A stretch of DNA of 64,000 nucleotides. It comes from Escherichia phage phi92. The stretch is from sequence record NC_023693.1. The stretch is one strand, 5' to 3'. Below the pieces are notes generated by a model. That model made no database searches, was not told the origin of the DNA, and saw nothing but the letters and a program-made list of their open reading frames with translations. The position numbers and the translations under genes are program-made. Shown here one piece after another: positions 15,770 through 38,652 of this stretch; positions within the stretch are counted from its first letter, which is position 1; the number at the start of each line of letters is the position of its first letter.

Positions 15770-16110
15770 TATTTCCTCCTGTACGGCTCTGTAACGAGCT
15801 AATAGCCTCTAAGATATGCAATCACCTTACCTCACAGTAAAACTCGTTACAATCGTTTTTAGGAGGTTTAGGTTGTACTTAAAAATAATCTAAAAAGGTG
15901 TTGACAAACGCAAAAAAGTATGCTACCCTAACCCCCGAAAAACGCCGAGCGCAGCGAGGGGGTGTTATCTAATCTTGTGATACATGATCTAACAGACAAC
16001 TGAGTAGTCTACATATAGCACTATGTTATGTCTATAATACTAACATACATACTCTATACTAACAATAGATTCTTTATTAATTTTATTATTAATTAAATAA
16101 TAAATATCTA

Positions 16111-16139
16111 TTGACTTTAGATCTATCTGTATGTAGAGT
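16111..16139 (+). promoter_or_regulatory. sigma70-like promoter upstream of prs-like gene
   Basis: TTGACT - 17 nt - TAGAGT. Confidence 0.5.
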
Positions 16140-16178
16140 AGAGAACATAAAGTCCTAACTCAACTAAGGAGATAAACA

Positions 16179-17072
16179 ATGAAAGTTAGTATTCTACATG
16201 GTGTTGGCTGTTATGTTACTGATGTAGACGTTAAAGTCTTTACATTCTCTGGTGGAGAACAACATGTTCAACTAGACACGAATCTATCAGGTTTCAATCA
16301 TGCTACAGACAGAATCTTACTCTCTTTAGAAGTAAGATCTGCTAAAGACTTGATGACTTTGGTTATGACTAAGAATGCATTGGACAATATGCTATATCAT
16401 AAACCATATTGTGTTGATTTGCTCATGTTGTATGTGCCATATGCACGACAAGACAGAGTGTGTGAACCTGGGGAAGCATTCGGAGTTAAAGCATTTGCTT
16501 CTATAATTAATTCATTAAATTTCTCACGTGTTATCGTTGCTGATCCACATAGTGATGTTACTCCAGCGGTGTTTGACAGACTCTGTGTAATACCTCAAGA
16601 AGAAATTGCTTACGAAACTTTAAAGTGGAAGTTACGTATGGAGAATTTTGCTCTTGTTAGTCCTGATGGTGGTGCTCTTAAGAAAATATTTAAATTATCT
16701 AAGAAAATGTCTTTAGATGTGTTCTGTGCAGAGAAGGTTAGAGATACTGCAACAGGTGCTATTGTTCGTACAGACATTTCTGTACAGGATTTCAATAAGC
16801 GTAACCTGATGATCGTAGATGATATCTGTGACGGCGGTAGAACTTTTATTGAATTGGCTAAAGTGCTACGTGCTCGTAACGCAGGTAAGATTGAGTTATA
16901 TGTTACACACGGTATCTTTTCTAAAGGTCTTAAAGAGTTAAGTGAGCACTTTGACTGCATTCATTCTCTTAATGTGTGGGAAGATAACATCCAAGAAGAT
17001 TCCGGTGTTCTTGTTAAGAATCAGTCAGATTTGCAACAACAAATTGTATCTCCATACGTGTGGAATTTTTAA
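16179..17072 (+). CDS. prs: ribose-phosphate pyrophosphokinase family protein (PRPP synthetase-like; possible ADP-ribose pyrophosphokinase)
   Basis: PRPP-binding loop MIVDDICDGGRT, VSPDGGALKK, VIVADPHS; strong RBS AAGGAG. Confidence 0.85.
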   Translation: MKVSILHGVGCYVTDVDVKVFTFSGGEQHVQLDTNLSGFNHATDRILLSLEVRSAKDLMTLVMTKNALDNMLYHKPYCVDLLMLYVPYARQDRVCEPGEAFGVKAFASIINSLNFSRVIVADPHSDVTPAVFDRLCVIPQEEIAYETLKWKLRMENFALVSPDGGALKKIFKLSKKMSLDVFCAEKVRDTATGAIVRTDISVQDFNKRNLMIVDDICDGGRTFIELAKVLRARNAGKIELYVTHGIFSKGLKELSEHFDCIHSLNVWEDNIQEDSGVLVKNQSDLQQQIVSPYVWNF

Positions 17073-17082
17073 ATAATAAGTG

Positions 17083-17111
17083 TTGACAATAGGGAGTATG
17101 CTTAGTAAGAT
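17083..17111 (+). promoter_or_regulatory. sigma70-like promoter overlapping an 8-bp-arm palindrome, upstream of NAMPT-like gene
   Basis: TTGACA - 17 nt - TAAGAT; palindrome GGGAGTAT ... ATACTCCC spans about 17091-17116. Confidence 0.5.
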
Positions 17112-17143
17112 ACTCCCACACTAACAAACAAGGAGACATAACT

Positions 17144-36309: not shown

Positions 36310-36584
36310 GTCCGGCAATTAAATCAGCAATTGAAATTGCCTCACAAACCCTTAGCTTGACATGGTATGAAGTAATTCTTTGTAAGGTAATTAAGAATAC
36401 CTCCGAAACCTTGTCCTCGTTAGATAATTATGGTGTAGATTATCTACTTAAAATTTATGAATATTTAACATTCGAAGATTATGTACAAGATCTTCACGTT
36501 AAAGATGCGGATATTAAACGTGGTCAACAGAGAACAATAAGAGAACTGGATACGGCTATGAAAAAATTAATTCCAGATTCATAA
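36225..36584 (+). CDS. -1 frame extension of the tail assembly chaperone (GT-like product)
   Basis: -1 frame open from 36225; slippery T TTT TTC at 36240-36246 in the zero frame of the upstream ORF. Confidence 0.5.
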   Translation, partial: GELCPFFQTRFRKTVDPISRNRDSSEELSPAIKSAIEIASQTLSLTWYEVILCKVIKNTSETLSSLDNYGVDYLLKIYEYLTFEDYVQDLHVKDADIKRGQQRTIRELDTAMKKLIPDS

Positions 36585-36603
36585 GTAATACGGAGGATTA
36601 CCC

Positions 36604-38583
36604 TTGTTAGAAATTAACACTTCCAAGATTAAGAATACAGTAACGTTTACTGTAGATAAAGACAGTTTAAAAAATACTAAAGACGCAATTAAAAACCTTA
36701 AAACTTTTACAGAATCTATTGAACCATCTTTAAATATGACTAAAATGCGTCGTCAGTTTAAAAGTATGGAAGAGTATGCTAAAAGAATAAGGCAGCAAAT
36801 GTCAGGTCTTGGCGGCGGTAATCCTCCACCAATCCCACCAACCGGAGGTTCAAGTGGTGGTGGAAAAGGAGGAAGTGGCAGAGGCGGTTCTGGATCTTCT
36901 GGAGGACGTAAGACACCGGAGGAAAGAGCCGCAGAAGCCGCCGCTAAACGTGCAGCACTTGCTAATATGAAGCAAGACGATTTTAGTTTTAAAGCTATGC
37001 CTTTTACAAAAGCAGACAACAGAATTCTAGAAAAATCTAAAAAGATTGTAGAAGAAACTGTTGAACTTTATCGTAAAGGCGTGATTACTAGCCAACAAAT
37101 GAACAATACTTTGGCTAGACAGTTAGAAGAACTACGCAGATCTCATAAAGAGAAGAATGCACAACTTCTTGATGAAGAGAGAGCTAGACGTAGAATTGCC
37201 CGTCTGCAAGAAGCAGAAGATAAAAGAAGACAGCGTATCCGAGAAAGAGAAAGAAAGGATTTCGAACGTCAGCAAAGAAGAGAGAAAGAAGCAAGACAAC
37301 GAGACAGACAACGTAAGTTATCTGGTGTAGGTAATGCTGCTATTGCTCTTAACCCTGCTATGTTTGGTGCTGCTCTTTTAGGTGCTGGTTTATATCAAGG
37401 CATAAGCAAAATAGCTGAAAGTATCACAACTGCGGCAGAACGTATTAATATGGTTAGTAAAGGTGGTCAGAACGTACAGGTAAACCCTAATGCAATTTTA
37501 ACAATGCGTACTTGGGGTGAGATGAACGGTGTAGACTCTGCCAGCATTATTAAAGCCATTGACAATATTAAAGACGTTCGTGAACGTTTAGGTAATACTG
37601 TACTCCACTCTGAATTTGATGAAAAATCAGGTAAATGGAAAGGTGGAGATAGTGGTATTAATGAAATCATGAACCAATTTGGTTGGTCGAAAGAGGATGT
37701 TGCTAAATTCCAGAATAGACCTTTAGACTTTGTTCAAGCACTTGTTAATGAAGGTCAAAAAAGAGGAATGAACTCCGCGCAAATTGGTCGCTTGATGGAA
37801 AACCTTGGTGATGACTTAATGCACTACCAACGTATGTTTTTGGATAACGGTAAAGAGTACATGAAAGTCTTGGATATGTTAAAAAATTCAGGAGCCACTC
37901 TTAACGATGAAAACATCAAAGCAGCACAAGATTTTGTTAAGCTAAGAGCACAAATTAGTGCAGCAGGAGAAGGTTTTACCAATAACTTACTTATAGGATT
38001 TATGGATGGTTTAAAATCTGCACCAGATTTTGCAGAGAATATGAAAACTTTCCAAGAAGCTGCTCGTGGTCTTGGTGAAATGTCTGGTAGTATTGTAAGT
38101 AGCCTTGCAAAAATTGCGAAATATTTCCTTGATTTTTCAAATAAGGTTGGGCCAAAAAACAATACTAAAGAAGCTGTAAGAGATTATTATAATGGTACGC
38201 AGTATGGGTACGATGCACAGGTTGGTGGTAATCCTTGGGCTTATTGGCCTATTGGAAGAGATCAACATCTACCTGAAAATCAACCTTTAGGTGACTTTGA
38301 TAGTAGTTTCTTAACTAGTGCCTTAAACCCAAGTGCTTCTAGTATCGGTTACAATAGACCTGATTTAACAGCATCTATGCTAACACCACGCCAAGGTGTT
38401 CCAGTACCGTTAAGTGTAGAGAATACGGTTGTTATCCCAGACAACGCATTCCAGATTAATGTTATTCCAGATGGTTATGGTTTTAGTAATTATCTAGATG
38501 CGACAATGAATACCAGTTTTAGTAACTTCTCACAAGGTTTAACTCTTCAGTTAAGCAGTGGACAATCTTCTACTGGTGGTTAA
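36604..38583 (+). CDS. tail tape measure protein
   Basis: 659 aa, Gly-rich low-complexity linker, Arg/Glu-rich coiled coil, hydrophobic segment; TTG start. Confidence 0.75.
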   Translation: MLEINTSKIKNTVTFTVDKDSLKNTKDAIKNLKTFTESIEPSLNMTKMRRQFKSMEEYAKRIRQQMSGLGGGNPPPIPPTGGSSGGGKGGSGRGGSGSSGGRKTPEERAAEAAAKRAALANMKQDDFSFKAMPFTKADNRILEKSKKIVEETVELYRKGVITSQQMNNTLARQLEELRRSHKEKNAQLLDEERARRRIARLQEAEDKRRQRIRERERKDFERQQRREKEARQRDRQRKLSGVGNAAIALNPAMFGAALLGAGLYQGISKIAESITTAAERINMVSKGGQNVQVNPNAILTMRTWGEMNGVDSASIIKAIDNIKDVRERLGNTVLHSEFDEKSGKWKGGDSGINEIMNQFGWSKEDVAKFQNRPLDFVQALVNEGQKRGMNSAQIGRLMENLGDDLMHYQRMFLDNGKEYMKVLDMLKNSGATLNDENIKAAQDFVKLRAQISAAGEGFTNNLLIGFMDGLKSAPDFAENMKTFQEAARGLGEMSGSIVSSLAKIAKYFLDFSNKVGPKNNTKEAVRDYYNGTQYGYDAQVGGNPWAYWPIGRDQHLPENQPLGDFDSSFLTSALNPSASSIGYNRPDLTASMLTPRQGVPVPLSVENTVVIPDNAFQINVIPDGYGFSNYLDATMNTSFSNFSQGLTLQLSSGQSSTGG

Positions 38584-38589
38584 TGCATA

Positions 38590-38615
38590 AAGCCTCGCTT
38601 CGGCGGGGCTTTTTA
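38590..38615 (+). terminator. rho-independent terminator after tape measure gene
   Basis: GCCTCGC-TTCG-GCGGGGC hairpin followed by TTTTTATTT. Confidence 0.65.
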
Positions 38616-38622
38616 TTTGTCT

Positions 38623-38652
38623 TGACAAAGAGTTGTTTTTCGTGATAAAATG
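38623..38652 (+). promoter_or_regulatory. sigma70-like promoter
   Basis: TTGACA - 18 nt - TAAAAT. Confidence 0.5.

What the first reader, a model, noticed from the sequence alone, without database searches (positions are those of the whole stretch)
15900..38652. Family of near-consensus sigma70-type promoters ahead of tRNA, NAD and structural genes
At least nine sites share TTGACA followed by 16-18 nt and a TA-rich hexamer (TAAGAT, TAGAGT, TATAGT, TAGACT, TAAAAT, TAAAGT), for example at 16111, 17083, 19291, 19835, 21283, 26434, 28127 and 38623. This suggests heavy reliance on unmodified host RNA polymerase even for virion genes, and no obvious phage-specific late promoter motif.
Basis: seen in the sequence. 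Interest (0 to 1): 0.35.

Follow-up and report, generated by a model that had tools for sequence, protein, structure and literature searches.

The report
Host-type promoters in a phi92-like phage
The flagged sites are real, conserved promoters of the ordinary E. coli sigma-70 type in a phi92-like coliphage. They sit ahead of tRNA, NAD-salvage and virion genes, a pattern already published for the related phage rV5, so the finding is sound but largely ordinary.

Summary
The window is about 99% identical to phi92-like coliphages (Justusliebigvirus). There are 20 exact TTGACA-N16-18-TAnnnT matches, and 10 lie in the 5.8% of position/strand space that is intergenic and co-oriented with the next gene (p=5e-8). 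Loose sigma-70 matches are not enriched. The sites share an A-rich UP-like tract, TTGACAA, a 17-18 nt spacer and a TGn extended -10. Three end 11-15 nt before a tRNA. The portal, head-operon and baseplate promoters are footprinted in three genera whose coding DNA is about 78% identical, and two of them also in an rV5-like phage. No T4-type late motif is present, and no sigma, AsiA or MotA family was detected. These promoters also form a subclass distinct from the presumed early-region promoters, which have 16-17 nt spacers and rarely TGn. The rV5 "late motif" TggTAaAAtA is the same extended -10. A side result: the portal promoter is followed by a hairpin conserved across 10 loci with at least 6 unrelated stems. 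New member of a known kind; modest interest.

The parts
15901..15929 (+). Promoter-like site TTGACA-17-(TGC)TACCCT in the divergent non-coding region; weak -10; downstream target unclear
   Evidence: identical in VEcB
16111..16139 (+). Weaker site TTGACT-17-TAGAGT, 39 nt before the ribose-phosphate pyrophosphokinase (prs) start
   Evidence: the Klebsiella phage has TTGACC-17-TACACT at the same place
17083..17111 (+). Promoter TTGACA-17-TAAGAT ahead of the nicotinamide phosphoribosyltransferase gene; its -10 lies inside the inverted repeat GGGAGTAT/ATACTCCC
   Evidence: -35 kept and the inverted repeat kept through compensatory changes in L006
18870..18898 (+). Weaker site TTGACT-17-(TGA)TAAGAT overlapping the NAMPT stop codon
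19291..19320 (+). Promoter TTGACA-18-(TGC)TAAGAT ahead of the 88-aa ORF and tRNA-Met/Leu
   Evidence: member of the 45-nt repeat family D7
19834..19862 (+). Promoter TTGACA-17-(TGT)TATAGT; ends 11 nt before a tRNA at 19874-19952
19974..20003 (+). Promoter TTGACA-18-(TGT)TAGATT; ends 15 nt before tRNA-Ser (20019)
21282..21311 (+). Promoter TTGACA-18-(TGT)TAGAGT; ends 11 nt before tRNA-Gly (21323)
   Evidence: orthologous promoter-to-tRNA-Gly arrangement in L005 and L006
22983..23011 (+). Candidate TTTACA-17-(TGT)TATCCT just after terminator 22936-22960
   Evidence: second-best non-training score in the position-weight-matrix scan
23411..23440 (+). Weak candidate TTGCTT-18-(TGA)TATGAT after a terminator, ahead of the lysis/terminase block
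26433..26462 (+). Promoter TTGACA-18-(TGT)TAAAGT between terminase and portal genes
   Evidence: -35 and TGn/-10 kept, spacer diverged, in 10 loci (TTGCCA-17-TGGTAGAAT in rV5-like phages)
26474..26495 (+). Hairpin TCTACCCC/GGGGTAGA at about +6 to +27 of the predicted portal transcript, with a T-rich tail
   Evidence: -14.9 kcal/mol, z about -4; at least 6 unrelated stems at the same place in relatives; listed as terminator t064 in rV5
28127..28155 (+). Promoter TTGACA-17-TAGACT with phased A/T tracts upstream; drives protease-scaffold-decoration-major capsid genes
   Evidence: region nearly invariant in three genera
31240..31270 (+). Strong intrinsic-terminator-like hairpin after the major capsid gene; no promoter follows it
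32710..32738 (+). Candidate internal promoter TTGCAA-17-TATACT; the predicted start would fall in the ribosome-binding site
   Evidence: hexamers invariant, mid-spacer variable in three genera
38589..38612 (+). Terminator after the tape-measure gene, directly upstream of promoter 38622
38622..38651 (+). Promoter TTGACA-18-(TGA)TAAAAT ahead of about 21 kb of baseplate and tail-fibre genes
   Evidence: TG, TA and AT invariant in four genera, spacer diverged
63571..63600 (-). Promoter TTGACA-18-(TGT)TATTAT in a minus-strand intergenic gap
7374..7403 (-). Candidate TTGACT-18-(TGT)TAATAT, immediately followed by a hairpin plus TTTT
   Evidence: same layout in L005
11888..11917 (-). Candidate TTGACG-18-(TGC)TAGAAT at the 3' end of the RNA-ligase-like gene

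Best explanation
These are functional transcription start signals read by the host E. coli RNA polymerase carrying sigma-70.

Anatomy. Each site has an A-rich UP-like tract about 5-10 nt upstream of the -35 hexamer, which the alpha subunit C-terminal domains could contact. Then comes a consensus -35 (TTGACAa) for sigma region 4, and a 17-18 nt spacer with a T/A-rich downstream half. Next is TGn, often as TRTGn, for sigma region 3. The -10 hexamer is TAnnnT for sigma region 2. Transcription should start about 7 nt after the hexamer.

Placement. The sites divide the plus-strand block into units:
- prs and NAMPT;
- several tRNA units with leaders of about 5-9 nt;
- the lysis/terminase block;
- the portal gene;
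- the head operon from protease to major capsid protein, ended by a strong terminator;
- a roughly 21-kb baseplate and fibre operon.

Subclass. Together with the few comparable sites in the replication blocks, these promoters have long spacers plus an extended -10. The dense promoter array of the presumed early region has 16-17 nt spacers and mostly lacks TGn.

Shown versus inferred. Shown here: sequence features, placement, statistical enrichment and evolutionary conservation. Inferred: that sigma-70 holoenzyme uses the sites, and when it does so during infection.
For: Identity of the phage.

Enrichment: 10 of 20 exact matches fall in 5.8% of the search space, p=5e-8; 9 intergenic matches against 0.18 expected.

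Shared architecture: the consensus of 14 aligned sites is aAaAaA..T. TTGACA Aa ... TGt TA.a.T. A 45-nt repeat family covers three tRNA-region promoters.

Placement before tRNAs: the -10 ends 11-15 nt before a tRNA 5' end at 19834, 19974 and 21282. Relatives show gaps of 11-16 nt (L005 17855; L006 10071, 12290, 15840).

Footprints: at the portal and baseplate promoters the hexamers and TG are kept while the spacer diverges. This holds in Phapecoctavirus, a Klebsiella phage of the same subfamily and Vequintavirus FV3. The head-operon promoter is nearly invariant in the three Stephanstirmvirinae genera. The portal promoter is found in 10 loci.

Genome-wide in VEcB: about 29 such sites. The presumed early region has 20 matches in 14.7 kb against 0.73 expected.

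Subclass difference: Fisher p=0.001 for 18-nt spacers, 0.008 for 16-nt spacers and 0.009 for TGn. The trend runs the same way in the published rV5 promoter list.

No competing system: no phage polymerase or sigma is annotated, and none was detected among 69 early-region proteins. No T4 late box is present.

Literature: 33 sigma-70-like promoters, 11 with an extended -10, were predicted across the rV5 genome (PMC3606486).
Against: - No transcription start site, RNA-seq or in vitro transcription data were found for any phi92-like or rV5-like phage.
- Several -10 hexamers are only 3-4 of 6 matches to TATAAT (TACCCT, TAGACT, TAGAGT).
- At 63600 and 32710 the predicted start would fall in or after the ribosome-binding site of the next gene.
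- An 18-nt spacer is suboptimal for sigma-70.
- Consensus promoters upstream of virion genes leave late timing unexplained.
- Calling the VEcB region 'early' is an inference from gene content (small unknown genes, homologues of T4 30.8 and T7 1.1), not a measurement.
Confidence: 0.8

Rival explanations
1. The matches are chance products of an AT-rich genome and have no function.
For: TTGACA alone is not over-represented. Loose sigma-70 matches occur at chance frequency. Ten exact matches lie inside genes or on the wrong strand.
Against: The intergenic, co-oriented set is about 50-fold enriched. The hexamers are conserved while spacers diverge in other genera. Distances to tRNA 5' ends are regular.
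Confidence: 0.03
2. The promoters outside the early region, including those before virion genes, need a phage-modified polymerase or a phage co-factor. Such a factor might weaken -35 recognition, so that TGn-extended promoters are favoured once early promoters are shut off. Timing would then be set at initiation.
For: The long-spacer plus TGn subclass is distinct from early-region promoters in VEcB and trends the same way in rV5. An Srd-like anti-sigma candidate was reported in rV5. From my own knowledge, not checked here: T4 AsiA inhibits promoters that depend on the -35 element but spares extended -10 promoters.
Against: The -35 TTGACA is strictly conserved at the late promoters in three genera, which argues that it is used. 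No AsiA, MotA, sigma or ADP-ribosyltransferase family was detected among 69 early-region proteins. The subclass also contains tRNA and NAD-salvage promoters, which are not obviously late.
Confidence: 0.15
3. The promoters are constitutively usable. Late expression is governed mainly after initiation, by terminator read-through or antitermination as at lambda PR'/tR', by mRNA stability and by gene dosage after replication.
For: Only three or four promoters serve about 36 kb of virion genes, which contain terminator-like hairpins after the capsid, sheath, tube and tape-measure genes and several fibre genes. No promoter follows the strong capsid terminator. The portal promoter is followed within about 5-15 nt by a conserved hairpin with a T-rich tail in 10 loci. 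That hairpin is annotated as a terminator in rV5.
Against: No Q-like or N-like antiterminator has been identified. The T-tracts after the portal hairpin are weak in the window phage (GTCATTTGTC). A 5' hairpin can equally act as an mRNA stabiliser. Hairpins after genes for abundant proteins are common in phages without antitermination.
Confidence: 0.2
4. The true late promoters are a different, unrecognised class. The sigma-70-like sites before virion genes fire only early or weakly.
For: The rV5 authors proposed a T4-late-like motif TggTAaAAtA upstream of late genes.
Against: That motif is TGn plus TAAAAT, an extended -10. At least three of its eight instances have a -35-like hexamer at 17 nt. 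The T4 late box is absent from late intergenic regions here. The remaining late intergenic gaps contain only hairpins and ribosome-binding sites. No gp55/gp33 homologues were found in rV5.
Confidence: 0.08

Closest known systems
Predicted sigma-70 promoters of Escherichia phage rV5 (Vequintavirus; Kropinski et al. 2013, PMC3606486)
   Same: TTGACA-N16-18-TAnnnT sites spread over early, replication and virion modules, with about a third carrying an extended -10. The authors drew the same inference, that polymerase re-programming may not occur. Orthologous promoters lie before the portal gene and after the tape-measure gene.
   Different: In rV5-like phages the late sites keep TGG-TAAAAT, but the -35 is often degenerate (TTGCCA, TTGTAA) and the spacer is 17 nt. 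In this phage and two other Stephanstirmvirinae genera the -35 is consensus and the spacer is mostly 18 nt. No promoter feature is annotated at the portal-promoter site in any of the 54 public records that match it.
E. coli extended -10 (TGn) promoters
   Same: TG one base upstream of TAnnnT, often preceded by T/R (TRTGn), and tolerance of imperfect -10 hexamers and non-optimal spacers (class definition from my own knowledge).
   Different: Classical extended -10 promoters often lack a good -35. Here a perfect -35 and an UP-like tract are also present.
Strong early promoters of coliphages T5, T7 (A1-A3) and T4
   Same: Near-consensus host-type promoters with A/T-rich upstream regions, arrayed densely before small early genes. 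The equivalent array in this phage family lies outside the window.
   Different: In those phages virion genes use other systems: T7 its own polymerase, T4 the gp55/gp33/clamp system with TATAAATA. Here virion genes carry the host-type signal.
Lambda PR'-tR' late control by Q antitermination
   Same: A constitutive-looking sigma-70 promoter followed closely by a hairpin with a T-rich tail, ahead of a long virion operon that contains further terminators.
   Different: No Q-like protein, Q-binding element or sigma-dependent pause signal was identified. The resemblance is architectural only.

Membership tests
Sigma-70 (-35/-10) promoter | -10 hexamer with T at -12, A at -11 and T at -7 (TAnnnT) | tested here: met
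   All 10 core sites; the pattern defined the search
Sigma-70 (-35/-10) promoter | -35 hexamer close to TTGACA, 16-18 nt upstream of the -10 | tested here: met
   Perfect TTGACA with a 17 or 18 nt spacer at the 10 core sites; conserved in other genera
Sigma-70 (-35/-10) promoter | Located upstream of, and co-oriented with, a gene or RNA, more often than chance | tested here: met
   Binomial p=5e-8; 9 intergenic matches vs 0.18 expected; the -10 ends 11-15 nt before tRNA 5' ends
Sigma-70 (-35/-10) promoter | Transcription starts 6-8 nt after the -10 and depends on sigma-70 holoenzyme | not testable with these tools
   No start-site or transcriptome data found for this phage group
Extended -10 (TGn) promoter subclass | TG at -15/-14, one base upstream of the -10 hexamer | tested here: met
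   8 of 10 core sites in the window; 10 of 13 non-early vs 4 of 16 early-region sites in VEcB; TG invariant at 38622 in four genera
UP-element-containing promoter | A/T-rich tract, especially A-tracts, at about -38 to -59 | tested here: inconclusive
   Columns 5-10 nt upstream of the -35 are 79-100% A/T with an aAaAaA consensus. The genome is 63% A+T and alpha-CTD binding was not tested
T4-type late promoter (gp55-dependent) | TATAAATA at -10 with no -35 element, upstream of late genes | tested here: not met
   One TATAAATA on the + strand, inside a gene at 29309; the late sites have a consensus -35
T4-type middle promoter (MotA/AsiA-dependent) | MotA box (a/t)(a/t)(a/t)TGCTTtA centred at -30 in place of the -35 | tested here: not met
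   The aligned sites carry TTGACA at -35, not a MotA box; no MotA or AsiA Pfam hit among 69 early-region proteins
Lambda-type late antitermination unit | Promoter-proximal intrinsic terminator | tested here: inconclusive
   A hairpin at about +1 to +33 of the portal leader is conserved in 10 loci, with 4-8 T in the next 10 nt. Termination efficiency is unknown
Lambda-type late antitermination unit | A Q-like antiterminator gene and its binding element in the promoter | not tested
   No candidate was recognised in annotations or the window proteins scanned; no dedicated search was made

The most novel reading that the evidence does not exclude
This phage group may time its genes with one host sigma factor and two promoter 'dialects'. 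Early genes would use compact 16-17 nt spacers without TGn. Later genes would use 18-nt spacers with a TRTGn extended -10.

The switch could come from a still-unknown small phage protein that weakens -35 recognition, or from a change in template topology after replication. It could be combined with control at the conserved hairpin that follows the portal promoter, by antitermination or by mRNA stabilisation.

If so, this would be a late-gene strategy for large virulent myoviruses that differs from the T4, T7, SPO1 and N4 models.
Probability: 0.15. Interest if true: 0.5.

Novelty: new member of a known kind. Interest (0 to 1): 0.25.

Why it matters
phi92-like, phAPEC8-like and rV5-like phages are widely isolated for therapy and biocontrol, yet their transcription programme has never been mapped. 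A conserved promoter and terminator map gives concrete operon boundaries for annotation and engineering. It also gives testable sites for start-site mapping.

The early versus non-early promoter subclasses and the portal-leader hairpin are specific handles on an open question: how a 146-kb virulent phage with no recognisable sigma factor or polymerase times its late genes. The core observation, host-type promoters in a coliphage, is expected and was already published for rV5.

Tried and rejected
- **T4 late box.** TATAAATA is absent from late intergenic regions.
- **Other extended -10 sites in late gaps.** A search for TGnTAnnnT in late intergenic gaps found only the two TGn-type late promoters already known, 26433 and 38622; tRNA-region and lysis-block sites were also listed.
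- **Operator idea for 28127.** The inverted repeat CAAATATCC/GGATATTTG is unique in the window, and its half-site is not enriched (6 vs 3.1 expected). There is no evidence for a regulon-wide operator.
- **5' hairpins as a general feature.** Only the portal leader folds significantly among 17 leaders tested. The hairpin after 38622 would start upstream of the predicted transcription start and is not conserved.
- **Rfam.** Only tRNAs were found in 15700-39000.
- **Window proteins.** Pfam and PHROGs scans of ten proteins of unknown function found no transcription regulator.
- **Literature.** No transcriptome or start-site study exists for Stephanstirmvirinae or Vequintavirinae in the held library. 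The phi92 genome paper is not held.
- **Public annotation.** None of the 54 records matching the portal promoter annotates a promoter there.
- **Inverted repeats around the -35.** They exceed shuffles in the window (6.67 vs 5.12±0.45) and in L006, but not in L005 or the early region. This is left as an unexplained observation.
- **Technical note.** Searches failed because I assumed one locus per FASTA file. Each file holds several loci.

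
Full report
**What the window is.** The flagged region is 98.9-99.3% identical over its full length to Escherichia phages ESCO9, Nernie, VEcB and many others. RefSeq classifies VEcB in Stephanstirmvirinae, genus Justusliebigvirus, the phi92-like myoviruses of about 146 kb. GC skew and ORFs give three strand domains.
- 1 to about 15800, minus strand: replication and recombination genes.
- About 15900 to 60400, plus strand: prs, NAMPT, a tRNA cluster, lysis genes, terminase (24345-26429), portal (26527-28095), head genes, tail genes, tape measure (36604-38583), then baseplate and fibres.
- The last 3.4 kb, minus strand again.

**Check of the observation.** The pattern TTGACA-N15-19-TAnnnT has 22 matches against 7.5 expected. 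With a 16-18 nt spacer there are 20 matches. Ten of them are both intergenic and co-oriented with the downstream gene: 15901, 17083, 19291, 19834, 19974, 21282, 26433, 28127 and 38622 on the plus strand, and 63600 on the minus strand. That category is 5.8% of the position/strand space, giving a binomial p of 5e-8. Inside the intergenic segments 9 matches were counted against 0.18 in shuffles. Two caveats matter. TTGACA by itself is not over-represented. A relaxed sigma-70 consensus scan finds no more sites than shuffled sequence (66 vs 62, 75 vs 72, 45 vs 42). The signal lies only in the near-consensus, correctly placed set.

**Anatomy of the sites.**
- Aligning 14 sites gives the consensus aAaAaA..T. 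TTGACA Aa, then a spacer, then TGt TA.a.T. That is an A-rich tract where the proximal UP subsite would lie, a consensus -35, and a TGn extended -10. The TGn is often preceded by T/R, as in TATGT.
- Three tRNA-region promoters are copies of a 45-nt cassette (family D7, 64-76% identical).
- The -10 elements of 19834, 19974 and 21282 end 11, 15 and 11 nt before a tRNA 5' end, which predicts leaders of about 5-9 nt. The tRNA after 19834 (19874-19952) was found by Rfam but missed by ARAGORN.
- For protein genes the -10 ends 10-64 nt before the start codon.
- A position weight matrix built from the ten core sites also picks up 22983, 7403(-) and 11917(-). Their scores are above those in almost all shuffles.
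- Weaker candidates are 16111, 18870, 23411 and 32710.

**Conservation.** I fetched the homologous regions of three relatives:
- Mt1B1_P17 (Phapecoctavirus, about 78% identical in the terminase-to-capsid block);
- Klebsiella phage phi1_175008 (same subfamily, about 79%);
- FV3 (Vequintavirus, an rV5-like phage).

The three virion-gene promoters compare as follows.
- Portal promoter: all three Stephanstirmvirinae keep TTGACAAAA and a near-consensus -10 (TGn-TAAAGT, or GTG-TATTAT in Mt1B1_P17), with different spacers. FV3 has TTGCCA-17-TGGTAGAAT.
- Promoter after the tape-measure gene: TG, TA and AT of TGnTAnnAT are invariant in all four, while the spacer has diverged. A terminator precedes the promoter in three of them.
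- Head-operon promoter 28127: the whole stretch from the upstream A/T tracts to the ribosome-binding site is almost invariant in the three Stephanstirmvirinae. That is more conserved than the flanking coding DNA.
- A further candidate, TTGCAA-17-TATACT at 32710, shows conserved hexamers with a variable mid-spacer.

The same pattern search is enriched in every relative: 12 vs 3.5, 14 vs 2.9 and 14 vs 1.8. It recovers the promoter-then-tRNA layout there too. A scan of IMG/VR with a portal alignment added more lineages. The portal promoter is present in 10 loci and absent where terminase and portal genes abut.

**Two subclasses.** In the complete VEcB genome, the region of small unknown genes near the genome ends has 20 matches in 14.7 kb against 0.73 expected. 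I take this to be the early region. It includes homologues of T4 30.8 and T7 1.1.

An automated genome-wide tally gives the following.

| Region | Sites | 16 nt | 17 nt | 18 nt | With TGn |
|---|---|---|---|---|---|
| Presumed early | 16 | 9 | 7 | 0 | 4 |
| Elsewhere | 13 | 1 | 5 | 7 | 10 |

Fisher p is 0.001 for 18-nt spacers, 0.008 for 16-nt spacers and 0.009 for TGn. In the two other Stephanstirmvirinae loci, 11 of the 14 plus-strand sites in the tRNA and virion regions have 18-nt spacers. The published rV5 promoter table shows the same direction. Its presumed early unit has TGn in 3 of 14 and 16-nt spacers in 5 of 14. The other units have 9 of 16 and 0 of 16 (p=0.07 and 0.014). So the promoters in the window are not just more of the same. 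They form a long-spacer, extended -10 subclass. Whether this carries temporal information is an inference only.

**Late-promoter question.**
- The T4 late box occurs once on the coding strand, inside a gene.
- The other intergenic gaps of the virion block contain only hairpins and ribosome-binding sites.
- The rV5 paper reported a T4-late-like motif, TggTAaAAtA, upstream of late genes. Its eight instances read as TGn plus TAAAAT. At least three have a -35-like hexamer 17 nt upstream, including the orthologues of 26433 and 38622. I read it as the extended -10 of the same sigma-70-type class, not a separate late signal.
- No phage polymerase or sigma factor is annotated in VEcB.
- A Pfam scan of 69 early-region proteins found only NADAR, CapR, Phage_30_8, Phage_1_1, T5orf172 and domains of unknown function. 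This is weak negative evidence, because most of these proteins match nothing informative.

**Interpretation.** The best explanation (confidence 0.8) is that these are genuine host sigma-70 promoters that define the transcription units of the tRNA/NAD module and the virion module. The existence of a subclass also qualifies the claim that nothing distinguishes later promoters. Only three or four promoters serve about 36 kb of virion genes. That block contains terminator-like hairpins after the capsid, sheath, tube, tape-measure and several fibre genes. The genes downstream of the strong capsid terminator at 31240-31270 have no promoter directly after it. The nearest candidate downstream is the weak site at 32710. 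Read-through, antitermination, mRNA stability and template copy number are therefore plausible contributors to timing.

**Side finding: the portal leader.** The portal promoter is followed at about +6 to +27 by the hairpin TCTACCCC/GGGGTAGA (-14.9 kcal/mol, z about -4). Among 17 leaders folded, it is the only significant one. In 10 loci the same position (+1 to +15) carries a hairpin of -10 to -18 kcal/mol. There are at least six unrelated stem sequences, and the next 10 nt contain 4-8 T. The rV5 authors list the orthologous elements separately as promoter P064 and terminator t064. It is not an Rfam family. It could be:
- a shared 3' end for terminase mRNA and a 5' stabiliser for portal mRNA;
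- an attenuator;
- part of an antitermination unit.

These tools cannot decide between them.

**Novelty and score.** Host-type promoters across all modules, with many extended -10 elements and the same inference about polymerase, are published for rV5 (PMC3606486). None of the 54 public records matching the portal-promoter site annotates a promoter there, and I found no promoter analysis for phi92-like phages in the held literature. The finding is therefore a new member of a known kind. It is useful for annotation and for designing start-site mapping, but not surprising to a specialist. The subclass distinction and the portal-leader hairpin are the parts most worth following up.

Noticed in passing
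window 26474-26495 (with promoter 26433-26462); orthologues in L005-L007, L011-L013, L015, L017, L018, L021: A hairpin with a T-rich tail directly follows the portal promoter. It is kept in 10 loci with at least 6 unrelated stem sequences. It is not in Rfam, and rV5 lists it as terminator t064 next to promoter P064. Its role (terminator, 5' stabiliser or attenuator) is unknown.
   Followed up: partly
window 28085-28195: The head-operon promoter region is almost invariant in three genera whose coding DNA is about 78% identical. It runs from the phased A/T tracts through the -35, the -10 and the inverted repeat CAAATATCC-N18-GGATATTTG to the ribosome-binding site. The repeat is unique in the window. 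The reason for this extra constraint is unexplained.
   Followed up: partly
window 7340-7403 (minus strand); L005 6028-6099: The candidate promoter TTGACT-18-TGT-TAATAT is immediately followed by the hairpin GCCTACCTA/TAGGTGGGC plus TTTT. The predicted start falls inside the 5' arm. Upstream transcripts could therefore terminate there, while transcripts started at this promoter would lack the stem. The same layout occurs in a Phapecoctavirus.
   Followed up: partly
window 17090-17120, 19284-19308, 19967-19993, 21276-21295: Inverted repeats enclose the -35 or -10 of several promoters. Mean best stem is 6.67 bp against 5.12±0.45 in shuffles. The repeat at 17083 is kept through compensatory changes in a Klebsiella phage. 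Function unknown.
   Followed up: partly
window 19874-19952: A tRNA found by Rfam (38.6 bits) was missed by ARAGORN. It starts 11 nt after the -10 of promoter 19834. Conversely, ARAGORN's tRNA-Met (19625-19700) and tRNA-Ser (20019-20108) did not reach Rfam's gathering score.
   Followed up: partly
window 28192-28671: This gene is labelled 'DNA methyltransferase' in RefSeq relatives. It matches the phage serine protease family Peptidase_S78_2 (XkdF) and head-maturation-protease PHROGs. It sits where a prohead protease is expected, so the label is probably wrong.
   Followed up: yes
window 15770-16178: A 409-nt non-coding divergent region lies at the GC-skew turning point. It contains repeated (T)ACTAACA words, a GC-rich hairpin (about 15931-15963) and promoter-like sites on the plus strand. 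It may be an origin or a small-RNA locus; not examined.
   Followed up: no
window 13802-14143 (minus strand): A 113-aa protein of unknown function matches the Pfam cREC_REC domain (cyclic-phosphate processing receiver domain, E=2e-14).
   Followed up: no
L002-L004 (VEcB early region, outside the window): One early-region protein has a NADAR domain (E=6e-36), alongside the phage's prs, NAMPT and Sir2 genes. This suggests an extended NAD/ADP-ribose module.
   Followed up: no
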